From assembly GCA_041641305.1 (NCBI GenBank), contig JBEPYN010000001.1, positions 256,001-320,000 on the forward strand: 64,000 nt of DNA, given 5' to 3'. Every line of letters begins with the position of its first letter. Within the stretch, counting starts at the first letter, position 1. Origin of the DNA: Nitrososphaerota archaeon (GTDB lineage Archaea > Thermoproteota > Nitrososphaeria_A > Caldarchaeales > Caldarchaeaceae). The notes below the pieces were generated by a model, which was not told the DNA's origin, ran no database searches, and saw only the letters and a program-made list of their open reading frames with translations. Both the position numbers and the translations under genes were made by a program. This document shows, one piece after another, positions 39,557 to 51,905 of the stretch.

Positions 39557-40102
39557 GTGCCGCGGATGTTTGAGGGCCTGCTTCTAGGAGACAGCGTAGT
39601 TGTATGGAATGTTGACCAAGCGCGGGAGCTTTACCGCACAGGATTCTATGGAAAACCCCTAGGCGTCCCCAAGCCAAGAGACCTCAACTTCGATGCCCCC
39701 CTTGTCCTCGACCTTGTCGAGGCTCTTTACCTCGCTAAGCAGCGAAAGCTGCGTATTCTCCGCGGCGACACAGAGATTTCTCCCGAGGATTTTGAGGAAT
39801 ATGCCGCATCGGTGGAGCCGAACTTCAAAACAAAGTACCATGTCTACGCAGACCTACGTGAACGTGGTTTCATAGTCCTGCCGGGGATAAAGTTCGGCAG
39901 CGACTTCGCGGTTTACCGACATGGCCCCGGCATAGACCATGCGCCATTCATCATACAGATTAAGAAGGGTGATGATAGGCTTTCTGCCTTGGAGATAATT
40001 AGGGCGGGGCGCCTCGCCACCTCTGTCAAAAAACATTTCACGATATCTGTGCCCACTGATGATAAAGTTGTGTACCTGATGTTTGAGTGGTGGAGAGCTT
40101 AA
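39557..40102 (+). CDS. endA: tRNA-splicing endonuclease catalytic subunit
   Basis: L.LVEALYL, VY.DLRERG, GIKFGSDFAVY, H, RLATSVKK (Y/H/K triad). Confidence 0.93.
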   Translation: MPRMFEGLLLGDSVVVWNVDQARELYRTGFYGKPLGVPKPRDLNFDAPLVLDLVEALYLAKQRKLRILRGDTEISPEDFEEYAASVEPNFKTKYHVYADLRERGFIVLPGIKFGSDFAVYRHGPGIDHAPFIIQIKKGDDRLSALEIIRAGRLATSVKKHFTISVPTDDKVVYLMFEWWRA

Positions 40103-40755
40103 ACCATACGGATGTAGATGACGTGGAGTAGTTTTCCAAATTTCTTGATTTCGAGCAGCTTGTGCCCCGTGCGCTCGGCGTAGGCAATCATGTCAACCTC
40201 TGTAGCCGGTTCAGAGGTTATCACATGCAGGCTCTCCCCAACCTTGAGGTAACGCGAGATAAAGTCGCCGACCTGTGTCAGGATGTTTTCACATGTTTCG
40301 CCGAAAACTGTGAGACGGAAATCGGCAAGTGTTTCTAAACAGGCCACGCCTCTCTCCGCGTTTATCGCGGCAAATTTTTCGGCGGCTGTCGACGAGTCCA
40401 CAGCATTTGTCAGGGGTTTCTCCGCACGCACCTTTGCTAGCCATCCCTCATCGTAGGTGTTTTTCACCAAAAGCTCCGGTGTCAAAACCGGGTTAGTCTC
40501 AAGTATAATGCAGTCGACTGGTGCAAGCAAGGCGGCGTCGGCCCGTGGGTTGGACAACACCGCCAGCATGGTGTTTTTCTTGGCCAGCGTACCTGATTGC
40601 CTCACGGTGACCCGGTGAGGTTTTCCGACAAAAAATAGATAGGGTTTTACGACGCCTACTAGGTAGGTGTTGTCTGAGAGAGGCTGCATCCAGAGGTCGT
40701 GTTCCACAACGTATAGTCTGTCGCTTGGGTAAATGCAGCCGTCAGCCTGGGTCAA
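40099..40755 (-). CDS. GcvH/LbpA-like domain (lipoyl Lys replaced by Arg) fused to TusA-like domain
   Basis: P.DRLY...H.W, APV...I.E.N, Y.EGWL; C-terminal L...G..C...GESL.V...EP....D......TGH. Confidence 0.75.
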   Translation of the reverse strand: MTQADGCIYPSDRLYVVEHDLWMQPLSDNTYLVGVVKPYLFFVGKPHRVTVRQSGTLAKKNTMLAVLSNPRADAALLAPVDCIILETNPVLTPELLVKNTYDEGWLAKVRAEKPLTNAVDSSTAAEKFAAINAERGVACLETLADFRLTVFGETCENILTQVGDFISRYLKVGESLHVITSEPATEVDMIAYAERTGHKLLEIKKFGKLLHVIYIRMV

Positions 40756-41603
40756 CGCTGCCGCTCAATCGGGAAACGGACGAGGTTCCCCCACTCAGTC
40801 CAGCTGCCGTCGTAAACTCTTACCCTCGGGTATCCGAGGAGATGCTTGAGGACAAACCATGTGACGCTGGCTCGTTCACCGATGCGGCAGTATGTCACCA
40901 CGTCCTTTTCAGGAGTCACACCTTTCGACGCGTAGAGCTGCTTAAGCTCCTCGGCCGACTTGAATGTTCCGTCTTCTCTGATAGCTTGTCCCCATGGAAT
41001 GTTTATGGCGCCCGGTATGTGGCCTCCTCGTTGTGCATGCTCGTTGGGGTACTCTGGTGGGGCTGTTATCTCGCCTGTGAACTCGGCTGGTGAACGGACG
41101 TCGACAAGAACGAGGTCGGCTTTCCCAACTTTTTCTCTGAGAAGCTCGTCGAAGAAGACGCGGTTTTCATATTTGACCTTCTCCACTTTATAGACCGCTG
41201 GCTTAGGTGTTGGAACCTCCTTAGTCAATTCCCCGCCCGTGTCTATCCATTTTTTTCTCCCGCCGTTTAGTATCTGAACTTTCTTGTGACCATATATTTC
41301 GAAGACCCAGAAGGCGAATGTTGCGAACCAGTTGTTGTAGTCGCCGTAGAGGATGACGTGTGTGTCGTTTGAGACGCCGAGTCTGCTCAACAGTTTCTCA
41401 AACTCCTCCGGACCTATGATGTCCCTCTGATCGGGCTTGTTCATGTCCTTTCTCCAGTCTATCAACAGCGCGCCTGGGATGTGACCCTGCTCGTAGGCCA
41501 GCTTCGGGTCATAGTCCACCTCTATCACTGTTATGCCTGGTTTTCCGAGATTTGCTTTCAGCCACTCAACCTCTACCAAAACCGATGGGTTTGCGTATGT
41601 CAT
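40752..41603 (-). CDS. Tandem-domain thiosulfate sulfurtransferase (rhodanese)
   Basis: GHIPGA twice, LNGG...W, active loop YCRIGERA, YDGSWTEWG. Confidence 0.94.
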   Translation of the reverse strand: MTYANPSVLVEVEWLKANLGKPGITVIEVDYDPKLAYEQGHIPGALLIDWRKDMNKPDQRDIIGPEEFEKLLSRLGVSNDTHVILYGDYNNWFATFAFWVFEIYGHKKVQILNGGRKKWIDTGGELTKEVPTPKPAVYKVEKVKYENRVFFDELLREKVGKADLVLVDVRSPAEFTGEITAPPEYPNEHAQRGGHIPGAINIPWGQAIREDGTFKSAEELKQLYASKGVTPEKDVVTYCRIGERASVTWFVLKHLLGYPRVRVYDGSWTEWGNLVRFPIERQR

Positions 41604-41665
41604 GTGGTTTATATGCATGATGCAAGATTTATAGGTTATTATTCTACAATAATAATTGGGAAATA

Positions 41666-43363
41666 TCACCCGTACCTGAACTTAACCCCGTGCCCATGCC
41701 ACTCATGGCCAAACCTCACGACCTCAGACGGCCCTATGACCCCGCATGTTCCACACGCCACGCACGCCACATGGTCAAACTTCAACAACCCATTCCTGAT
41801 GTCGTTCCAGGTCATTTCAAGGGCCTTTTTCTCGGCCTCGTTTATGTTTAGTCCCTGTTTCATTAGGTTCTCAAGGTTTAGACGATAAAGGTCTCTGAAG
41901 CTGGAGAACACCCCTTTCTCGGTTACGAGGGTGTAGCAGCTCACCGGACAGAGCGGTATCCATGCCTTGTATGGGTCGCGGGATGCAGCATCCTCATCTA
42001 CCGCTATGTGACTCCTGACCTTATCCTCGTGATACTCGAGTTTACCAATATATTGCTGAATTTTCTGAACCATGTCCCGCTGCACATCCCTCATGTTGAT
42101 GACGCGGCCCACCGAAGATTTCCCGAAACCCAAACTGAACCCGATAGATGGGAGAACAGAATAGGCGAAACGACCCTCTGTTAGCCTACTGTTTGACCGC
42201 GATTTCTCCACTCTCCTGTATAACGGCTCTAGGAGAATGCGGTAAACAGAGAGGGAGGCGTCGCTGAAGTCGTTTCGTTTCTTGGCTTCGATGAAGGTTT
42301 TAGCGGCAGCTATTCCCGAGGCTACGGCTGGTCTCATCCCGTCGATCAAGGCACCCATTTTGTAGAAGACGCCGAGGGAGTCTCCGGCCATCAGGAAACC
42401 CGGTGCATAGGGTTTCTGCGGCAGGATTTTGTAGCCACGCGGTATGTTGTGGGCCGAGTACTCGACGAGGGTTGCACCCTCGAGCAAGGGGCCGAGAAAC
42501 GGATGCTCCTCCATCTCCTCTAAGAGGTCGAGCGGCTTACCAACTTCCGTGAAGTCTTTCGTGAACTTTTCTATGCCCGATGAGAGGTCTATGACTATGC
42601 CGACCGATACGGTGTCACGGTTTGGGTACACGAACCCGCCTCCCACAACGCCGTGCATAAAAGGCCCGATAAGGTAAACAGATTTGTAGCCATCTCCCGT
42701 GGAGAAAAATTCCTCTATCCGTTCTGGGTTGACTTTGAAGATGTGCTTAACGCCGTGGTAGACCTGGTCTGGTGTGAGCTTGGACCTTATGCCAGCCTTT
42801 TCGGGAAGTAGGCTGGTGACCCCTCCGCAGTCTATAACCAAGTCCGCGTAAACCTCTTCGTCAACAGTCTTCACACCCACAACTCTCCCATCTCTCCAAA
42901 CAAGCTCTTCAACAGTTTTACGGCTGGTAAGCATAGCTCCCTCCTCGGTCGCGACACCGGCAAGCCAACGGTCAAACCGAGCCCTCAAAACAGAATAATC
43001 ATGTCCGGTGGAGGCGTCGAGCATGGTGAAACCCAGCTTGGTAAAGAGAGATGATTTGTCGAGCTTGATGTATCGGTAACTCGCCTCACCGTCTTGCTTA
43101 CGCGGCGAGCTCAACATGTACAACTCATGGCCAACGATTTTCCGCTCTAATGGTGCGTGTTCCTCAAACTCCGGCACCAAGTCAACTAGCCCGAGCCCGT
43201 TCTCAAATGCTCCGAATAATACGCCGCCGGAAACATTTCTCTGCCCCGGGAGCTGCGCCTTCTCCAACACGAGAACATCAAAACCTTCCCGGGCGAGTTT
43301 AATCGCCGCCGCACTTCCCGCGGGCCCCGCCCCAACAACAACGACGTCAAACTTTTCAACCAT
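41666..43363 (-). CDS. fixC: FixC-type FAD oxidoreductase fused to FixX-like ferredoxin (ETF:quinone oxidoreductase-like)
   Basis: GAGPAG, NVSGG, RARFDRWL, EYSAH.IP, AGD; C-terminal CP..CY and CVACGTC, G.GVKFRYG. Confidence 0.87.
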   Translation of the reverse strand: MVEKFDVVVVGAGPAGSAAAIKLAREGFDVLVLEKAQLPGQRNVSGGVLFGAFENGLGLVDLVPEFEEHAPLERKIVGHELYMLSSPRKQDGEASYRYIKLDKSSLFTKLGFTMLDASTGHDYSVLRARFDRWLAGVATEEGAMLTSRKTVEELVWRDGRVVGVKTVDEEVYADLVIDCGGVTSLLPEKAGIRSKLTPDQVYHGVKHIFKVNPERIEEFFSTGDGYKSVYLIGPFMHGVVGGGFVYPNRDTVSVGIVIDLSSGIEKFTKDFTEVGKPLDLLEEMEEHPFLGPLLEGATLVEYSAHNIPRGYKILPQKPYAPGFLMAGDSLGVFYKMGALIDGMRPAVASGIAAAKTFIEAKKRNDFSDASLSVYRILLEPLYRRVEKSRSNSRLTEGRFAYSVLPSIGFSLGFGKSSVGRVINMRDVQRDMVQKIQQYIGKLEYHEDKVRSHIAVDEDAASRDPYKAWIPLCPVSCYTLVTEKGVFSSFRDLYRLNLENLMKQGLNINEAEKKALEMTWNDIRNGLLKFDHVACVACGTCGVIGPSEVVRFGHEWHGHGVKFRYG

Positions 43364-44450
43364 TGTATCCGCCCTCTATCAACTCGATTAAACGCGGCAC
43401 GATTTGGTAAAGGTCTCCCTTGACACCGTAGTGCGCGATCTCGAATATGGGGGCTTTGGGGTCGGTGTTTACGGCGACTATTTTCTTGGATTTTATCATG
43501 CCGACCCTATGCTGCACCGAGCCGCTTATCCCGAGAGCAACGTAGACGTCAGGCGATACTGTTTTACCCGTCTGCCCCACTTGTCTCTCAGATGTTATCA
43601 ATCCCTCCAGCTCCTTCAGTTCAGCGTGTATCAACGCACGGGTCGCGCCCAGCTCGGCTTTGACGCCGAGGCGTGTTTTGATGACTTCCACAAGTTTCTT
43701 GGCCAGTTCATAGCCCTCCCTCGGGTTGCGTGGGTTGCCCTTGCCGTCCTTGAGAATGCCCAAACCTATGCTAACAACTACCTTGGCCTCCTCGAGCTCG
43801 ACAGGGCTCTTCGGCACCTCCCTTTCCTCCAAAACCTGAACAAGAAAATCGTCGGGGTTCGGCTCGGGCCTCAGCCTAACCTTTTCACCGGCCCTGCTCC
43901 TGTCCTCGGGAAGGGGGTCGAAGTTCCCGGGCCTAATGCTCGCTATCTGAGGCCTGTGACGAGGTGTGTAGATTTTCGCCACACGTGTCGCGAAGTCAGG
44001 CCTTATCTGGGCCAAAACGTTTTTGAAAGTTGTGTTGAGCGGCCCGAAGTAGTAGTCTTCGACGGCGAGGTTGATGTTGTCGGTGGCCAATCCTGTGTTG
44101 AGCCTGTAGGCGACACGTGGAGAAAGGTCTCGCCCAAGCTCGTCTGCGACAAAAAGCAGCGCATAGGGCTTGTATCTCTCCACCATCTCGCAGACTATGC
44201 GAGTATATGGTAGACACTGGTAGCTCCGTAGCCAAGGCTCATCTGCATAGTAGACCACGTCAGCGCCCCTTGCAATTGCTTCGTCCACTGCATTCTCCAC
44301 ATCATATCCTATGATAACGGCTCCAACCCTCTGCTCAATTTTGTCAGCTACTTTCCGAGTCGCGGCGATAATCTCAAGGCTCGGCCTCGTCAGCCTTCCT
44401 TTATCCAAGGCGCAGTAAGCCCACACATCCCTATACTGCTCGAGCGACAA
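43356..44450 (-). CDS. etfA: Electron transfer flavoprotein subunit alpha (FixB)
   Basis: GRDLSPRVA, QVGQTGKTVSP..Y.ALGISG.VQH..GM, NTD..APIF. Confidence 0.93.
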   Translation of the reverse strand: MSLEQYRDVWAYCALDKGRLTRPSLEIIAATRKVADKIEQRVGAVIIGYDVENAVDEAIARGADVVYYADEPWLRSYQCLPYTRIVCEMVERYKPYALLFVADELGRDLSPRVAYRLNTGLATDNINLAVEDYYFGPLNTTFKNVLAQIRPDFATRVAKIYTPRHRPQIASIRPGNFDPLPEDRSRAGEKVRLRPEPNPDDFLVQVLEEREVPKSPVELEEAKVVVSIGLGILKDGKGNPRNPREGYELAKKLVEVIKTRLGVKAELGATRALIHAELKELEGLITSERQVGQTGKTVSPDVYVALGISGSVQHRVGMIKSKKIVAVNTDPKAPIFEIAHYGVKGDLYQIVPRLIELIEGGYNG

Positions 44451-45678
44451 CCTTCACACCTCCGAAAACCTCCTCAACCAAGTCTTCTAGAGTAAATACG
44501 TCAACAGCTTTTTGCGCCGCCAGTGAGTCGATAAGCTCCTTGGGAAGGTTGTTTACAGGGTCTCCTTTCTTGAATGGCCCATATGTTTTCCCGTTCCATT
44601 CAAGCTTCTCAACATCTTTCTTGAAGACAAGGGTCTCGCCGACAAACTTCTGGGTTGGAGGCTTTCCTATCTCATAGCCTGGGCCAACTATCGTGGGAGA
44701 GCCCATCAGCCCCAGCTTGGTTGGGTCGGCGTTTATGTAATCGGCGTTCCAGACAAGTGGATTCTCAAGCTTATGCGGATAGCTGTGCGCCCGTGCTTTT
44801 TTCTGGCTGGTGGCCGGGGGCGTTCTCGGCTCATAGTGGTGGTCTATCGTAAGAAGACATGGAAGAACCGTCCTCATCTTCTGTATTATGTTTCCGATTT
44901 TCCTCTCAGCAATAACATGGTCAAGCTCCGGCGAAATCTCGAAATCACGTGTGAAGGCTATGCTGGGAATGGTTACGCCGAGCATCTGGCTCAACGCTTC
45001 AGCCGTCTGCGGCCCAACATTTCCCGTCTCGCCGTCGCTGGTCTTCATACCGGTCAAAATAATGAATTTTGACAAACGTTCCCGGTATTTCTCCAACTCC
45101 GCCGACACATCCTCTCTACTTATTTCACCTCTTGCATAACGGGAGAAAACAGAGTCCTTCACAGATGGTAATTTGCTGTAGATGTGGTGTGGGAGAAAGT
45201 TCTGTTCATACAGCTCTTCTGCAAGCTTGAGAGCCTCATCCACCGAGGACTTCTCAACAACATCCTTGAGCCTGTCAACAGCATCGAAATGGTTCTGGAG
45301 ATATCGCTTGATCCCGCAGGCCAATGTGTAGGAAGTGGCCCATGTATCCGCCCCAGCCATGCGTCTGTCACTTAGGATAATTCTTTCATCAAAGCCTTCG
45401 AAAGATATCCTTGGCACATACTTGCTTTCTTCACGTGGCTCGACGAGGTCTGACATTATGGGGACGAGCTTGGGCTCGGGCCCCATCGTCATCGCCACAA
45501 TTTTTCCGCCGACAGTTTTCTTCACATAGTAAGCTGCCTCAACCGCTTTCACATCATGTGGGTTGAGGACTAGCTCCATCTCCTCACGTCGCAGAACACC
45601 CGACACCGTCACAACCTGCGTGGTTTTAGCCGGCACGCCCTTGACGAGACAAATAATCAACATGTCAGCCTTCCCCAC
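44431..45678 (-). CDS. etfB: Electron transfer flavoprotein subunit beta (FixA) with insertions
   Basis: LNPHD..AVEAA, MGP, SDRRMAGADTWATS, DGETGNVGP, GL.GSPT.V. Confidence 0.9.
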   Translation of the reverse strand: MGKADMLIICLVKGVPAKTTQVVTVSGVLRREEMELVLNPHDVKAVEAAYYVKKTVGGKIVAMTMGPEPKLVPIMSDLVEPREESKYVPRISFEGFDERIILSDRRMAGADTWATSYTLACGIKRYLQNHFDAVDRLKDVVEKSSVDEALKLAEELYEQNFLPHHIYSKLPSVKDSVFSRYARGEISREDVSAELEKYRERLSKFIILTGMKTSDGETGNVGPQTAEALSQMLGVTIPSIAFTRDFEISPELDHVIAERKIGNIIQKMRTVLPCLLTIDHHYEPRTPPATSQKKARAHSYPHKLENPLVWNADYINADPTKLGLMGSPTIVGPGYEIGKPPTQKFVGETLVFKKDVEKLEWNGKTYGPFKKGDPVNNLPKELIDSLAAQKAVDVFTLEDLVEEVFGGVKVVARAV

Positions 45679-47161: not shown

Positions 47162-47977
47162 GTGTTGGCCTTCCAGCTGGGTGCTGCGTTTAAGCCCAGC
47201 CTATTAGGCGACAACAAGCTCGATACAGCCATATTTTATGCGAAGGTATTGGCTCGCCTTGGCTACAGGTATCTCGTACTTGACTCGGAGAGAGCCGTTG
47301 ATGACTTGTCTTTGAGAGATTTCGAGGAGCTTGTCTCGGTCTGTAAATTGCTGGGCTTCCCTGAACCTGTTATCACTATTCCTGTTAGACGTGGTGATTG
47401 CTGGGAAAGGCTCGGTGCTGTGGTTGATGTTGTGAGCAGGGACGGGTTTGGCGGTGTCTGCCTTGTCGCGGGAAACTCGGCTTATCTTACTCGGGAGGAG
47501 GCTTCGCAGAAGCCCGGCAAATTGTTGCTCGAAGCCGCCGAAGTTTTTCGTAGGAAATGCCGGTTTAACCTTTTGATGGTTGGCACCGAACGTGTCGAGA
47601 AAACGGCTGCCAAAATAGCGGCAAACCATCGCGCTATACCAGTCATGCTAATGACACCCAACATCGTTGAGGAGACTAGACTTTATTCACATAATGGTTT
47701 ACGGAGAGCTGTTTATGTCCCTTACTATTTTGGGGAGGAGCTTCCGAGAGATGTGGCGGAAAAGGTTCATGCCTATGTTTCGCGACGCGTCGGAGACAAA
47801 AACGTAGATGAAACTTGGCGGCAATTTGTCTACACTGGCCCCCTCAACGAATTCACACAGCTTCTACGTGATTTGTCGGCAAACAACATCGACGTCTTCA
47901 TAGGCTATCCGCTGGATAAACGCGTCAAACAGCTGACAGCCCTTTCTAAGGCCGTGACAGGCTTATCAACGGCTTAG
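47162..47977 (+). CDS. Hypothetical protein, probable TIM-barrel
   Basis: 271-aa ORF with alternating strand/helix pattern; convergent with gcvT. Confidence 0.65.
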   Translation: MLAFQLGAAFKPSLLGDNKLDTAIFYAKVLARLGYRYLVLDSERAVDDLSLRDFEELVSVCKLLGFPEPVITIPVRRGDCWERLGAVVDVVSRDGFGGVCLVAGNSAYLTREEASQKPGKLLLEAAEVFRRKCRFNLLMVGTERVEKTAAKIAANHRAIPVMLMTPNIVEETRLYSHNGLRRAVYVPYYFGEELPRDVAEKVHAYVSRRVGDKNVDETWRQFVYTGPLNEFTQLLRDLSANNIDVFIGYPLDKRVKQLTALSKAVTGLSTA

Positions 47978-49028
47978 TCCTAACAACCGCTTTCCTGCGA
48001 CGGCCTCTGACATCGACAAAGACCTCGGCACCGTCAACGTGAATTGACGGCGGAAGATATGCTAGGGCTATTCCTTTGTTAATCGTCGGCGAGAGGCAAC
48101 CGCTTGTCACCTTTCCTGCCTCAACATCACCAACATAAACTTTGTATCCGGGCCGCGGCACACCCGGCTCCACCATCTCAACCAACATGAGTCGTTTGAC
48201 CGGGCCATTAGCCTGTTTTTTCTCCAGCGATTCTTTACCTATGAAAAACCGTTTATCCATTTTGACAGCCCAGAAGAGACCCGCCTCGATAGGGTCATTC
48301 TTCTCGTCAAAATCCTGTCCATATAGCGGGAAGCCGGCCTCTATTCGGCAGACGTCGCGGCAGGCCAGCCCACATGGCTTGACACCCTGATCGGTGAAAA
48401 ATTTCCAGACTTTCTCATAGAGTTCCTGTATCCCGCATAAAACCATCAACTCGTACCCGTCGCCACCGGTGTAGCCGCTTCGCGTAACCAATAGTCTGCA
48501 ATCGCCCATGTTTCTGAACCCGCCCTCAAACCATTTAAAACCAGAAACATCCCCAACCAAATTTGAAACATATGCTGAGGACTTCGGGCCCTGCACCGCG
48601 AAGAAGGCGCTGCTCTCCGTGATGTCTTCAACTAACACCTCGCCCTCTATGTTATGCTCCAACCACTCCAGGACACGATTTCTCGTCAAGGCGTTTGAGA
48701 CCATGAGATAACTGTTGTCCGCGACTTTGTAGACCGTGACATCGTCTATGATGCCTCCATCCATGTTAAGAATCAATCCATACTTCATCCGGCCTGGCTT
48801 CAGCCTCTCAACATCTATTGTCAGGATTTTTTGGAGAAGCTGAGTCGCGTCTGGGCCGGATATCTTTGTCCGGGTCATGTGGCTAATGTCGAAAATGCCA
48901 GCATCCCTTCTCACAGCCTCGTGCTCCTCGCGGAGAGAAGTGAATGTGATTATTGTCCGCCAGCCAGCGAACTCGCCCAGCTCCTTCGCATTCTTCTCAT
49001 GAAGATGAAGCAGAGGTATTTTGTTCAT
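47946..49028 (-). CDS. gcvT: Glycine cleavage system T protein
   Basis: FAGW, FDISHM, GGIIDD, RSGYTG.DGYE, RIEAG.PLYG. Confidence 0.96.
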   Translation of the reverse strand: MNKIPLLHLHEKNAKELGEFAGWRTIITFTSLREEHEAVRRDAGIFDISHMTRTKISGPDATQLLQKILTIDVERLKPGRMKYGLILNMDGGIIDDVTVYKVADNSYLMVSNALTRNRVLEWLEHNIEGEVLVEDITESSAFFAVQGPKSSAYVSNLVGDVSGFKWFEGGFRNMGDCRLLVTRSGYTGGDGYELMVLCGIQELYEKVWKFFTDQGVKPCGLACRDVCRIEAGFPLYGQDFDEKNDPIEAGLFWAVKMDKRFFIGKESLEKKQANGPVKRLMLVEMVEPGVPRPGYKVYVGDVEAGKVTSGCLSPTINKGIALAYLPPSIHVDGAEVFVDVRGRRRKAVVRTKPLISLSRP

Positions 49029-50535
49029 TCTGTCTCCTCCGCAACATGCGCATACTGAGGGTTAAATGCATTGGGTGGGAGGCTTTGGCCTCGTTTATTC
49101 TCCCAACGGCTGTGTTGTGTGGAGCCGATTTAACCAGCTGAGGCGAGTCATAGCATTCCTGAATCACTTTGGATAGGGCTTCGTAGAAGTTGTCGAGCGT
49201 TTCCTTGCTCTCTGTCTCTGTCGGCTCTATCATGAAAGCCTCCTCAATAATCAGCGGAAAATATATCGTCGGCGCATGGACGCCATAGTCGAGGAGGCGC
49301 TTCGCGACCTCAAGCGCTCCGAGTCCAGTCTCTTTTCTGAGCTTGGCGAGGCTGACGACGAACTCGTGTTTTCTTGGACGTGTCGGGTCGTAGGGGAGTG
49401 TGACGCCTCGCAGCCTCCTCACCTTGCTTAGCAGATAGTTTGAAGACGAGACCGCGTAGAGTGCGGATCGTCTCAGACCTTCACCGCCAAGCGCAAGGAT
49501 GTAAGCATATGCTCGTAGAAGAACAGCGAAGTTTCCTGTAAAGAGCTTGACTGGGCCTATGCTAGATGGCCCACCATCGTCTAATAAGTATCGTCCGTCG
49601 CCTGTTTTGACCACTCTCGGAGGAGGCAGGTATTTTGCCAGTTTTGCGACGACTCCTACTGGCCCTGCGCCCGGGCCTCCTCCACCATGTGGTGTGGAGA
49701 AGGTTTTGTGAAGATTGAGGTGAACGATGTCGAAGCCCATGTCACCCGGCCTCGCGACACCGACTATTGCGTTGAGGTTTGCGCCGTCGTAGTATAGCAG
49801 GGAATCGTTTTGATGCATGATTCGGACGATTTCTTCGATGCCTTTCTCGAACAATCCGATTGTGTTGGGGTTTGTCAGCATTATGCCGGCGACGTCTCCG
49901 TCAACCATTTTCTCGAGCATCTCGAGGTCGACGCATCCGTCTTCACGTGTTCTCACCACCTTGACGTCGAAGCCCGCCATGGCGGCGCTTGCAGGGTTTG
50001 TCCCGTGGGCTGAGTCTGGGACGATGATTTTCGGCCTCGGCTTCCCTTCTTTCTCGCTGTGGTAGGCTCTGATGATGAGGCATCCAACCAGTTCTCCATG
50101 CGCACCGGCCGCGGGAACCATCGAGAAAGCATCCATGCCCGTCAACTCCTTCAGCGCCTGCTCGAGGTTGTATAGAATCTCGAGACATCCCTGTACGGTT
50201 TCCACTGGCTGGAGTGGATGAATGTCGGCGACTTGGTCGGCGATTTGGTTGTTTACTACGGGGTTGTATTTCATGGTGCAGCTGCCGAGTGGGTAGAAGC
50301 CTGTGGAGATACTGTAGTTCATTTGGCTTAGGCGTGTGAAGTGTCTCACAACAGTCAGTTCTGAGAGCTCTGGCAGGGTGAGGCTATCTCTGAGGAGTTT
50401 TCCCGGAATTTTGCTGAGGCTTCTTTCTCCCGCCTCCCTAATCTCTCGAGGATTTGATGGAACCTTGAAACCTATGACACCGGGACGTGACAACTCGTAG
50501 ACAAGTTTCTCATCCCAGTAAGCCTGACGGAACAT
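48997..50535 (-). CDS. gcvPB: Glycine dehydrogenase subunit 2
   Basis: YPLGSCTMKYNP, AHGTNPASA, HLNLHKTFSTPHGGGGPG, EPTETES. Confidence 0.96.
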   Translation of the reverse strand: MFRQAYWDEKLVYELSRPGVIGFKVPSNPREIREAGERSLSKIPGKLLRDSLTLPELSELTVVRHFTRLSQMNYSISTGFYPLGSCTMKYNPVVNNQIADQVADIHPLQPVETVQGCLEILYNLEQALKELTGMDAFSMVPAAGAHGELVGCLIIRAYHSEKEGKPRPKIIVPDSAHGTNPASAAMAGFDVKVVRTREDGCVDLEMLEKMVDGDVAGIMLTNPNTIGLFEKGIEEIVRIMHQNDSLLYYDGANLNAIVGVARPGDMGFDIVHLNLHKTFSTPHGGGGPGAGPVGVVAKLAKYLPPPRVVKTGDGRYLLDDGGPSSIGPVKLFTGNFAVLLRAYAYILALGGEGLRRSALYAVSSSNYLLSKVRRLRGVTLPYDPTRPRKHEFVVSLAKLRKETGLGALEVAKRLLDYGVHAPTIYFPLIIEEAFMIEPTETESKETLDNFYEALSKVIQECYDSPQLVKSAPHNTAVGRINEAKASHPMHLTLSMRMLRRRQNEQNTSASSS

Positions 50536-51905
50536 CAAACCACACCCTTCACAGTCTCCAAATAATCCCGGATGTCCTCGACGCTGTGAACCTCTGTCAC
50601 ACACGTCAACACACCGTCGCCCAGTTGCGGAAAATCATCCACAATCCTGATGCCCCCAACTATTCCGATGCTTAGAAGCCTCTTCAACAGCTCCTCAGAT
50701 GAGTGTCCCTCTTTTCTGTAGGTGAACTCCATGTAATGTGGGGCATTTAGCAGCGGCGCCTTTACTCCATCCACCTTCTGGAAACATTCGATGAAGTAGG
50801 CCGTCTTCTCGAAGATGTGTCGAGCGAGTGATTGAAGTCCATGTTTGCCCAGAAGCGAGAGATAGGCTGCGGCTGTTATGGCGCAGAGAGCCTGGTTGGT
50901 GCAGATGTTTGAGGTGGCTTTTTCGCGTTTGATGTCTTGTTCTCTGGCCCTTAGCACCATCGTGAAAGCTCGCCTCCCATCCCCAAGTGTCTCAGCCATA
51001 CCCACCATCCTGCCAGGCATGCTGTGGATAAGCTTCCGGTCGCCGCTGCACCCCAATACCCCAAGCAGTGGGCCGCCAAAATTCATCGGAAGACCGAGCG
51101 GCTGACCCTCGCCGACGACGATGTCGGCTCCCATCGCTCCCGGCGGCCGCAGCAAACCGAGAGAAATCGGCTCTGCACCTACTACGAACAAGGCGTTTCT
51201 GTCGTGGGCAATTTCGCCTACCGCTTCAACATTCTCCACTAAGGCCCCGAGGTAGCACGGGTTCTCGACATAAACAGCAGAAGTCTCATCGTCAACCAAC
51301 GTTTTCAACTCCTCCTCATCCACTTTTCCCGTCTCGTCGAATGATGCCTTAACGAGCTTGAGGCCCAACGGCTTAACATATGTCTCGGCCACACGTATTC
51401 TCCCGGGGCCACAGTGGCCTGCGTAGACGATCTTGTCTCGGCCGTTGTATCGATATGCCATTCTGAAGGCCTCTCCCAAGGCTGTGGCCCAGTCATACAT
51501 GGAGGAGTTTACGACGTCCACTTCATAGAGGTCTGCGACAAGGCTCTGGAACTCGAACAAGGCTGTTAAAACACCCTGCGAAACCTCGGGCTGATAAGGG
51601 GTATAGCTTGTTACAAACTCGCTTCTTGAAGCAATCTCCTTCACAGCGGCTGGAACATGGTGTGGCCATACACCTCCTCCCAAGAAGAGACGGAGACCCT
51701 GCCTATTTTTGGACAAAATGTTTTTGACATGTTTGATCAGCTCAGGTTCGGAGAACGGACCTTCAAGACTCGGCGGAGAACTGAGAATATAACGGGATGG
51801 GATGTCTGCGTAGAGCTCCATTATGTCTTTGACACCTATCGCGTGAAGCATCTGACGCAGGTCTTCTTCCGTATGATGCCCGATGTAGGGAAAAACCTTA
51901 TCCAT
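50535..51905 (-). CDS. gcvPA: Glycine dehydrogenase subunit 1
   Basis: YTPYQPEVSQG, FGGP, REQDIKREKATSNICTNQ. Confidence 0.96.
   Translation of the reverse strand: MDKVFPYIGHHTEEDLRQMLHAIGVKDIMELYADIPSRYILSSPPSLEGPFSEPELIKHVKNILSKNRQGLRLFLGGGVWPHHVPAAVKEIASRSEFVTSYTPYQPEVSQGVLTALFEFQSLVADLYEVDVVNSSMYDWATALGEAFRMAYRYNGRDKIVYAGHCGPGRIRVAETYVKPLGLKLVKASFDETGKVDEEELKTLVDDETSAVYVENPCYLGALVENVEAVGEIAHDRNALFVVGAEPISLGLLRPPGAMGADIVVGEGQPLGLPMNFGGPLLGVLGCSGDRKLIHSMPGRMVGMAETLGDGRRAFTMVLRAREQDIKREKATSNICTNQALCAITAAAYLSLLGKHGLQSLARHIFEKTAYFIECFQKVDGVKAPLLNAPHYMEFTYRKEGHSSEELLKRLLSIGIVGGIRIVDDFPQLGDGVLTCVTEVHSVEDIRDYLETVKGVV

What the first reader, a model, noticed from the sequence alone, without database searches (positions are those of the whole stretch)
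40099..41603. Rhodanese coupled to a lipoyl-less LbpA/GcvH-TusA fusion: candidate lipoate-independent sulfur relay
Seen: the genes overlap by 4 nt (TTGA). Residues 1-140 have H-protein motifs, but the lipoyl hairpin reads LSNPR (Arg71) instead of ES.K. The domain has an N-terminal GC..P (Cys7) and a C-terminal GVAC (Cys139). Residues about 146-218 look like TusA with G.TC (Cys155). Established: LbpA proteins of sHdr sulfur-oxidation systems differ from GcvH by such terminal cysteines and work with rhodanese/DsrE/TusA. Inference: a Rosetta-stone fusion in which persulfide passes rhodanese -> TusA Cys -> Cys7/Cys139 without lipoate. No sHdr genes are in this window.
Basis: partly seen in the sequence, partly recalled or inferred. 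Interest (0 to 1): 0.75.

Follow-up and report, generated by a model that had tools for sequence, protein, structure and literature searches.

The report
Rhodanese with lipoate-free LbpA-TusA carrier
A hot-spring archaeon (Candidatus Caldarchaeum) pairs an ordinary sulfur-transferring enzyme (rhodanese) with an undescribed protein that fuses a lipoate-carrier-like domain, which no longer needs its lipoate-bearing lysine but keeps a conserved cysteine pair, to a TusA sulfur-carrier domain; it probably shuttles reactive sulfur on cysteines alone.

Summary
On the minus strand a 283-aa tandem rhodanese (40752-41603) overlaps by TTGA a 218-aa gene (40099-40755). That gene has a GcvH fold at the N-terminus and a TusA fold at the C-terminus (AF2 pLDDT 96.7; TM 0.87 and 0.90).

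- **Lipoyl lysine:** it is Arg71 here. Across 31 family representatives the position is R19, K10, T1, V1, and it flips about 9 times on the tree, so lipoylation is not under selection.
- **Cysteines:** Cys7 and Cys139 (the pair that marks LbpA) are each kept in 30/31 and are lost together in one member. Cys155 is invariant and aligns with the TusA active-site Cys.
- **Affinity of the N-domain:** it scores closer to sHdr-linked LbpA than to GcvH.
- **No sHdr:** I found no sHdr gene in this 99%-complete genome or in 35 related genomes from the two fusion-bearing families.
- **Gene neighbourhood:** the rhodanese sits next to the fusion in most contexts read across Thermoproteota. The upstream ETF-FixCX genes are not a conserved neighbour.
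- **Complex model:** it supports binding (0.68; controls 0.00), through the former lipoyl hairpin.

Best reading: a cysteine-based, lipoate-independent sulfane-sulfur carrier that works with rhodanese. The transfer order and the sulfur's destination are inferred. No paper describes the fusion. This scan reached the same reading before on another genome.

The parts
40752..41603 (-). Tandem-domain rhodanese (thiosulfate sulfurtransferase type), 283 aa, catalytic Cys239 (40887-40889) in the loop CRIGERA
   Evidence: Pfam Rhodanese 137 bits, two stretches. 345 bits to T. thermophilus rhodanese 1uar and about 300 bits to mycobacterial thiosulfate sulfurtransferases. Neighbour-gene orthologues are 55-95% identical with an invariant C239-R240.
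40099..40755 (-). LbpA-like::TusA fusion gene, 218 aa, TTG start overlapping the rhodanese stop (TTGA at 40752-40755)
   Evidence: Orthologues of the same length and N-terminus. AF2 model with pLDDT 96.7 and pTM 0.89.
40327..40755 (-). N-terminal GcvH-fold, LbpA-like domain (residues 1-143) with Cys7 (40735-40737), Arg71 at the former lipoyl-lysine position (40543-40545) and Cys139 (40339-40341)
   Evidence: Pfam GCV_H. Foldseek 1onl, TM 0.87, rmsd 1.7 A. Lys/Arg alignment. Residue tallies. LbpA-type relatives, including one in an sHdr cluster.
40102..40326 (-). C-terminal TusA-fold domain (residues 144-218) with invariant Cys155 (40291-40293) at the N-terminus of helix 1
   Evidence: Foldseek E. 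coli TusA 3lvj_C, TM 0.90, rmsd 1.6 A. Cys155 aligns with the CPxP Cys of the genome's three stand-alone TusAs. Invariant in 31/31.
41604..41665 (-). A+T-rich 62-nt spacer between fixCX and the rhodanese, with a TATA-like box TATAAA at 41628-41633, 24 nt before the ATG. It is a possible own, leaderless promoter for the pair.
   Evidence: Sequence. An A+T-rich box sits at the same place in four related loci. This is inference only; no archaeal promoter tool was available.

Best explanation
The two genes encode a cysteine-based, lipoate-independent sulfane-sulfur handling unit. The rhodanese takes sulfane sulfur from thiosulfate or another donor onto its Cys239. It works in a physical complex with the fusion protein, which carries the sulfur on its own cysteines: the TusA-type Cys155 and/or the LbpA-type Cys7/Cys139 pair.

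The N-domain derives from the same branch of H-protein-like carriers as LbpA of the sHdr sulfur-oxidation pathway. It no longer depends on a lipoyl arm. Its former lipoyl hairpin now appears to serve as the docking surface for the rhodanese.

Shown here: domain folds, residue conservation, neutral K/R exchange at the lipoyl position, gene linkage, absence of sHdr, and a predicted interface.

Inferred: that the cysteines carry persulfide, the order of transfer, and the destination. Candidate destinations are the genome's separate DsrE-TusA-SQR-like clusters and small molybdoenzymes, or biosynthetic sulfur use.
For: - **Folds:** GcvH TM 0.87 and TusA TM 0.90 on a model of pLDDT 96.7, pTM 0.89.
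- **Cysteines:** Cys155 is kept in 31/31 and aligns with the TusA catalytic Cys; 5/31 members still read CP at that site. Cys7 and Cys139 are each kept in 30/31 and are missing together in P0035. This is the pair that distinguishes LbpA from GcvH (PMC6067878). It is modelled within disulfide distance in LbpA (bioRxiv 10.64898/2026.10.01.755906).
- **Lipoyl position:** R19/K10/T1/V1. Lys versus not-Lys needs 9 changes on the family tree, no fewer than shuffled labels (mean 8.7). Syntenic Caldarchaeum orthologues differ K/R.
- **Closer to LbpA than GcvH:** stand-alone relatives with N-Cys, ESGK and C-Cys score above canonical GcvH. One stand-alone relative lies in an HdrA/C/B-DsrE-radical-SAM cluster. 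The fusions fall outside the GcvH clade (SH-aLRT 99).
- **Rhodanese adjacency:** in all Caldarchaeum contigs read, in all six distant contexts (Pelearchaeum, Bathyarchaeia and unnamed), and in 7 of 12 genome loci.
- **Complex model:** score 0.68, best of 3 controls 0.00. That mark was reached by 58 of 80 solved complexes and 2 of 110 mismatched pairs; these counts hold only roughly because my own alignments were used. The runs agree in at least 92% of contacts and the partner's pLDDT is at least 90. The interface uses fusion residues 59-63, 66, 70-75 and 77.
- **No sHdr:** nothing in the genome matched sHdrA/B/C or LipS, and only two long ORFs carry CCG domains.
- **TusA-LbpA contact is known:** pull-downs in Aquifex (PMC11094781) show it, so the fusion has a Rosetta-stone logic.
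Against: - No biochemical evidence exists. Persulfidation, thiosulfate use and the acceptor are all untested.
- The predicted interface lists neither the rhodanese Cys239 nor any fusion cysteine, so the model does not show a transfer-competent geometry.
- The position stays basic (K or R) in 29/31 and Glu68 is kept in 28/31. The hairpin is therefore under some other constraint that I cannot explain with certainty.
- Rhodanese adjacency is not universal. One genus (four loci) and one other locus have ABC-2 transporter or unrelated genes instead.
- TusA by Pfam is borderline: 27.6 bits against a 28.6 cut-off for the whole protein.
- A conserved Cys pair could be a structural disulfide in thermophiles.
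Confidence: 0.6

Rival explanations
1. Protein dithiol in place of dihydrolipoate. The Cys7/Cys139 pair resolves the persulfide made by the rhodanese (directly or through Cys155). This releases H2S and leaves a Cys7-Cys139 disulfide, which a thiol reductase recycles. The pair would then act as a thiosulfate-to-sulfite-plus-sulfide system, for example for sulfide supply or detoxification, and not as a carrier feeding oxidation.
For: The classical rhodanese reaction with dihydrolipoate gives sulfite, H2S and oxidised lipoate (Villarejo and Westley, as cited in PMC6067878). In LbpA the two cysteines are modelled at disulfide distance (10.64898/2026.10.01.755906). They are conserved and lost together here. 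The lipoyl arm is dispensable. There is no sHdr to receive the sulfur.
Against: It does not explain why an invariant TusA-type Cys155 domain is fused on. No thioredoxin or reductase gene is a conserved neighbour. It is chemistry by analogy only.
Confidence: 0.2
2. Non-catalytic partner. The fusion is a scaffold or regulator that binds the rhodanese through the old lipoyl hairpin and tunes or targets it. The Cys7/Cys139 pair would be only a stabilising disulfide of a thermophile protein.
For: The predicted interface is centred on the hairpin and lists no cysteine. The basic residue and Glu68 of the hairpin are conserved although lipoylation is not.
Against: Cys155 is invariant at exactly the TusA catalytic position, and some members retain the CPxP motif. 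One family member sits with DsrE2, TusA and a class-V aminotransferase (Aminotran_5, possibly a cysteine desulfurase), which points to sulfur chemistry.
Confidence: 0.12
3. A lipoylated H-protein paralogue. It would work in glycine cleavage (gcvT and gcvP lie 7 kb away), or as a true LbpA, with Arg71 being a peculiarity of this strain.
For: gcvT, gcvPB and gcvPA lie at 47946-51905 in the window without a gcvH. Ten of 31 family representatives do have Lys. The genome has LplA and LipA.
Against: Arg cannot be lipoylated, and R is the majority state, exchanging freely with K. A canonical GcvH (141 bits) is on another contig. The fusions lie outside the GcvH clade. No sHdr was found. The gcv genes are separated from the pair by opposite-strand genes and the ETF operon.
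Confidence: 0.03

Closest known systems
LbpA, the lipoate-binding protein of the sHdr (heterodisulfide-reductase-like) sulfur-oxidation pathway (Cao et al. 2018, PMC6067878)
   Same: H-protein fold. One conserved Cys near the N-terminus (GC..P) and one near the C-terminus. Higher profile scores than canonical GcvH. Known to work with rhodanese, DsrE and TusA, and TusA pulls down LbpA in Aquifex (PMC11094781).
   Different: The lipoyl lysine, strictly conserved in LbpA, is Arg here and is not conserved in the family. The domain is fused to TusA. No sHdr genes or LipS-type lipoate-assembly genes were found in this genome, and no HdrB-like gene was found in the related genomes searched in the two fusion-bearing families.
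TusA (sulfur carrier, Pfam PF01206; E. coli TusA, 3lvj)
   Same: Two-layer alpha/beta fold (TM 0.90). The Cys sits at the start of helix 1, at the catalytic position.
   Different: CPxP is replaced by CENI here; CP is kept in only 5/31 family members. The N-terminal third is too diverged for the Pfam model. TusA is a domain of a larger protein here, not a free 80-aa carrier. The genome also has three ordinary TusAs.
GcvH, H-protein of the glycine cleavage system
   Same: Fold and overall length of the N-domain (TM 0.87 to 1onl). The PY..GW motif.
   Different: No lipoyl lysine, extra cysteines, and a position outside the GcvH clade. The genome has its own canonical GcvH.
Rhodanese acting on dihydrolipoate (classical thiosulfate:dithiol reaction)
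   Same: A thiosulfate-type rhodanese paired with a member of the lipoyl-carrier family. The predicted contact is at the hairpin that would carry the lipoyl arm.
   Different: There is no lipoate. A protein cysteine pair may stand in for the dithiol, which is an inference.

Membership tests
LbpA (sHdr-associated lipoate-binding protein) | H-protein / lipoyl-domain fold | tested here: met
   Pfam GCV_H 39 bits. Foldseek 1onl TM 0.87.
LbpA (sHdr-associated lipoate-binding protein) | Two conserved cysteines, one near each terminus, absent from GcvH (PMC6067878) | tested here: met
   Cys7 in 30/31 and Cys139 in 30/31, missing together in P0035. Same pattern in stand-alone LbpA-type relatives.
LbpA (sHdr-associated lipoate-binding protein) | Strictly conserved lipoyl-lysine | tested here: not met
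   Arg71 here. The family reads R19/K10/T1/V1, with 9 K/not-K changes on the tree.
LbpA (sHdr-associated lipoate-binding protein) | Genomic association with sHdr genes and sLpl/LipS lipoate assembly | tested here: not met
   No sHdrA/B/C or LipS by tblastn in the 99.3%-complete genome. CCG domains occur only in two long ORFs. HdrB-like was found in 0/16 and 0/19 genomes of the two fusion-bearing families.
LbpA (sHdr-associated lipoate-binding protein) | Sequence affinity to LbpA over GcvH | tested here: inconclusive
   Profile scores favour LbpA-type proteins, and the fusions lie outside the GcvH clade (SH-aLRT 99). The backbone between fusions and LbpAs is unresolved.
TusA (PF01206) | TusA fold | tested here: met
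   Foldseek 3lvj_C TM 0.90, rmsd 1.6 A over 77 columns.
TusA (PF01206) | Catalytic Cys at the start of helix 1 | tested here: met
   Cys155 is invariant and aligns with the Cys of the genome's own TusAs. Helix 155-169 in the model.
TusA (PF01206) | CPxP motif and a score over the Pfam gathering threshold | tested here: inconclusive
   The motif reads CENI here; CP is kept in 5/31. Pfam gives 27.6 bits for the whole protein (below 28.6) and 30.0 bits for the domain alone (above).
TusA (PF01206) | Carries a persulfide or thiosulfonate on the Cys | not testable with these tools
   Needs mass spectrometry of the protein after incubation with a sulfur donor.
GcvH (glycine cleavage H-protein) | Lipoyl-lysine in the E-S-x-K hairpin; sole H-protein serving GcvP/T | tested here: not met
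   The hairpin reads LSNPR. A canonical GcvH lies elsewhere (141 bits). NCBIfam gcvH gives 33-38 bits against cut-offs of about 116.
Tandem-domain rhodanese / thiosulfate sulfurtransferase | Two rhodanese domains, with the catalytic Cys in a six-residue CRxGxR-type loop in the C-terminal domain | tested here: met
   Two Pfam stretches. CRIGER is invariant among neighbours. 345 bits to 1uar. Activity was not tested.

The most novel reading that the evidence does not exclude
The fusion is a natural 'lipoate-free LbpA'. The former lipoyl hairpin, now tipped by Arg or Lys, docks at the rhodanese. The Cys7/Cys139 pair does the sulfur or redox chemistry that the field has so far attributed to the lipoyl arm. 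Together with the fused TusA Cys155 this would form a self-contained three-cysteine relay that works without sHdr. If so, the conserved but unexplained cysteine pair of all LbpA proteins is itself a sulfur-handling site, and the lipoate-dependent sHdr pathway has a simpler cysteine-only relative in archaea.
Probability: 0.25. Interest if true: 0.8.

Novelty: new variant of a known kind. Interest (0 to 1): 0.62.

Why it matters
LbpA proteins are essential for sHdr-type sulfur oxidation, yet the role of their two conserved cysteines is still open. A 2026 preprint shows only that the ligase does not need them.

This family is a natural experiment. The lipoyl lysine is dispensable, the cysteine pair is kept, a TusA domain is welded on, a rhodanese is the standing partner, and sHdr was not found. 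That makes a direct test possible: do the LbpA-type cysteines handle sulfane sulfur on their own?

It also gives a testable function to a rhodanese module that recurs in Caldarchaeum and in several other Thermoproteota named by the sources (Bathyarchaeia, Thermoprotei). Genome annotation currently calls the fusion 'glycine cleavage system H protein' or 'hypothetical'.

Tried and rejected
- **Link to ETF-FixCX.** The etfB-etfA-fixCX genes lie directly upstream here and in close Caldarchaeum contigs, and type II sHdr clusters carry etfAB (PMC11094781). But the whole neighbourhood is syntenic in these close relatives. The ETF genes are absent next to the pair in another genus of the same family, in Pelearchaeum and in all distant contexts. 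I rejected it as a conserved functional link.
- **Link to glycine cleavage.** Rejected; see the fourth rival.
- **Third Pfam GCV_H hit in the genome (C2:228256).** It is a stand-alone lipoyl domain of about 90 aa with ETEKA, unrelated to the fusion.
- **The search for related loci with the wide alignment.** It failed for lack of a conserved stretch. With the close alignment it returned only Ca. Caldarchaeum MAGs.
- **Tree of N-domains against LbpA and GcvH.** The backbone is too weak to say whether the fusions arose once or from within LbpA.
- **Literature.** No paper holds GcvH/TusA/fusion together. Only the LbpA papers mention GcvH, TusA and rhodanese together.
- **PF03099 search for lipoate ligase.** It gave only 20 bits. 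The current Pfam model PF21948 found the LplA catalytic domain clearly.
Full report
**What is there.** On the minus strand of the window, a 283-aa gene (40752-41603) and a 218-aa gene (40099-40755) overlap by four bases. The TGA stop of the first lies inside the TTG start region of the second (TTGA, 40752-40755).

The first protein is a tandem-domain rhodanese with the catalytic loop CRIGERA (Cys239). It scores 345 bits to the T. thermophilus rhodanese 1uar and about 300 bits to mycobacterial thiosulfate sulfurtransferases. It is one of only two rhodanese-domain genes in the genome.

The second protein matches Pfam GCV_H over residues 14-114 (39 bits) and TusA over 170-216 (borderline: 27.6 bits whole protein, 30.0 bits domain alone, cut-off 28.6). 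An AlphaFold2 model built on 31 family members is very confident (pLDDT 96.7, pTM 0.89). Foldseek matches its N-terminal part to H-proteins (1onl, TM 0.87, rmsd 1.7 A) and its C-terminal part to E. coli TusA (3lvj_C, TM 0.90, rmsd 1.6 A).

**The residues.** Against T. thermophilus H-protein, the lipoyl lysine of ESVK aligns with Arg71 of LSNPR. Cys7 (DGCIYP), Cys139 (RGVAC) and Cys155 (FGETC) are as described. Cys155 aligns with the CPxP cysteine of the genome's three stand-alone TusA proteins and sits at the start of helix 155-169.

**The family.** A word-indexed search found 11 close relatives, all named Candidatus Caldarchaeum. A profile search of 1.8 billion cluster representatives found about 30 further full-length fusions of 215-250 aa. 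Their sources name them as Aigarchaeota/Pelearchaeum, Bathyarchaeia, Thermoprotei and Thermoproteota.

In 31 representatives:
- Cys155 is invariant.
- Cys7 and Cys139 are each present in 30, and the one member lacking one (P0035) lacks both.
- Position 71 is R in 19, K in 10, T in 1 and V in 1.
- Glu68 is kept in 28.
- Five members still read CP after the TusA cysteine.

On a tree of the 31 fusions, Lys versus not-Lys needs 9 changes, no fewer than randomly shuffled labels (mean 8.7). Syntenic Caldarchaeum orthologues differ K/R. Lys and Arg exchange freely at this position, so lipoylation is not what selection maintains there. The position stays basic in 29/31, however, so the hairpin has some other constrained role.

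**Relation to LbpA.** A 2026 preprint (10.64898/2026.10.01.755906) adds three points. In models the two cysteines (Cys7 and Cys145 in one LbpA2) lie within disulfide distance. The ligase does not need them. Their role is unknown.

In my profile search, stand-alone proteins of about 145 aa with GC..PEDLLY, ESGKWVGP and a C-terminal Cys score above canonical GcvH. One of them (P0053) lies in an HdrA/HdrC/HdrB-DsrE-radical-SAM cluster, which makes it a bona fide LbpA by context. In whole genomes of the phylum, stand-alone hits from one family score about 130 bits against about 98 bits for GcvH. In a tree the canonical GcvHs, including this genome's own, form a clade with SH-aLRT 99. The fusions and LbpA-type proteins lie outside it, and the branching among them is unresolved.

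**No sHdr.**
- The genome (99.3% complete) has a canonical GcvH on another contig (141 bits).
- It has LplA and LipA and three free TusAs. Two of these sit beside DsrE-like genes, and one also beside an SQR-like gene.
- It has nothing resembling sHdrA, sHdrB, sHdrC or LipS (tblastn with the proteins of the P0053 cluster). CCG domains occur only in two long ORFs.
- Within the order the pattern is complementary. The fusion was found in families f1 (15/15) and f3 (13/15) and not in f2 or f4. An HdrB-like protein was found in f2 (11/20) and f4 (4/4) and in none of 16 f1 and 19 f3 genomes.
- These are only four families and kin are not independent. The pattern does show that the fusion works without sHdr.

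**Gene linkage.** The rhodanese directly precedes the fusion, overlapping or nearly so, in all Caldarchaeum contigs read. It is adjacent, upstream or convergent, in all six distant contexts read from metagenomes. One of these also carries DsrE2, TusA and a class-V aminotransferase gene (Aminotran_5, possibly a cysteine desulfurase). It is adjacent in 7 of 12 loci from reference genomes. In one genus, and in one other locus, ABC-2 transporter or unrelated genes stand there instead.

The upstream etfB-etfA-fixCX genes (41666-45678) are neighbours only in the closest lineages. A TATA-like box sits 24 nt before the rhodanese ATG, in an A+T-rich spacer that is conserved in position. This fits an own, leaderless transcript, but that is inference.

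**Physical contact.** The complex predictor supports binding of the rhodanese and the fusion:
- Score 0.68; best of 3 controls 0.00.
- That mark was reached by 58 of 80 solved complexes and 2 of 110 mismatched pairs. These counts hold only roughly because my own alignments were used.
- The runs agree in at least 92% of contacts, and the partner's pLDDT is at least 90.
- I know of no solved rhodanese/H-protein complex, so memory of a template seems unlikely. That rests on my own knowledge.
- The interface uses fusion residues 59-63, 66, 70-75 and 77, which form the former lipoyl hairpin including Arg71, plus 135, 146, 148, 165 and 168-169.
- On the rhodanese side it uses 32-40, 88, 116-128 and 178-186.
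- Neither Cys239 nor any fusion cysteine is listed.

The model suggests a standing heterodimer held by the old lipoyl hairpin. It does not show a TusA-face encounter complex.

**How it most likely works.** The rhodanese mobilises sulfane sulfur. The fusion, bound to it, carries that sulfur on cysteines, without lipoate. Cys155 is the obvious TusA-type acceptor. The Cys7/Cys139 pair is either a second station or a resolving dithiol. In the second case it would release H2S and form a disulfide, by analogy with the classical rhodanese/dihydrolipoate reaction.

The destination is unknown. The genome has DsrE-TusA-SQR-like clusters, two small sulfite-oxidase-family ORFs and a SufS/IscS-like desulfurase. 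Everything chemical in this paragraph is inference.

**Novelty.** Source annotations call these proteins 'hypothetical', 'glycine cleavage system H protein' or 'H lipoate-binding protein/TusA-related sulfurtransferase'. I found no paper on the fusion. This scan noted the same module before on other genomes, and one follow-up (e1-1410138) reached the same reading. I tested its claims independently here. I rate it a new variant of a known kind (LbpA/TusA sulfur carriers), of real interest to the sulfur-trafficking field, but without a shown mechanism.

Noticed in passing
window 41666-45678 (-): The ETF operon is unusual. The ETF-beta-like gene encodes 415 aa (Pfam ETF matches only residues 28-126), the ETF-alpha gene 364 aa, and a 565-aa FixC-like flavoprotein ends in a cysteine-rich, FixX-like ferredoxin tail (CPVSCY...CVACGTCG). 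Its electron donor is unknown.
   Followed up: partly
window 47946-51905 (-): gcvT, gcvPB and gcvPA form a cluster without gcvH. The canonical gcvH lies on another contig (G000:C2:179185-179544).
   Followed up: partly
G000:C2:228256-228459 (-): A stand-alone lipoyl/biotinyl-type domain ORF of about 90 aa (ETEKA motif) gives a weak GCV_H hit. Its partner enzyme was not identified.
   Followed up: partly
G000:C2:188539-191961 (L015) and C2:45090-48431 (L016): There are two separate DsrE-like/TusA gene pairs (TusA motifs CPGP and CPWP). One is followed by a 397-aa SQR-like flavoprotein. They are candidate acceptors or parallel routes for sulfane sulfur.
   Followed up: partly
L035, L036, L042, L043 (same order, family f3, genus g9): In this high-GC genus the fusion gene is followed by an ABC ATPase and an ABC-2 permease instead of lying next to a rhodanese. 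P0025's contig (L025) also has an ABC-2 transporter about 1.5 kb away.
   Followed up: no
G050:C6:58344-58781 and G230:C6:20092-20529 (same genus): There is a second, stand-alone LbpA-like hit (143 bits, profile positions 4-149) with one in-frame TGA, in genomes where no HdrB-like gene was found. It may be a further lipoate-carrier-like paralogue or a broken gene.
   Followed up: no
P0008: This partial database protein has a different, GcvH-like N-terminus (IESVEE) joined to a C-terminal half almost identical to P0004's. It is probably an assembly or gene-call chimera.
   Followed up: no
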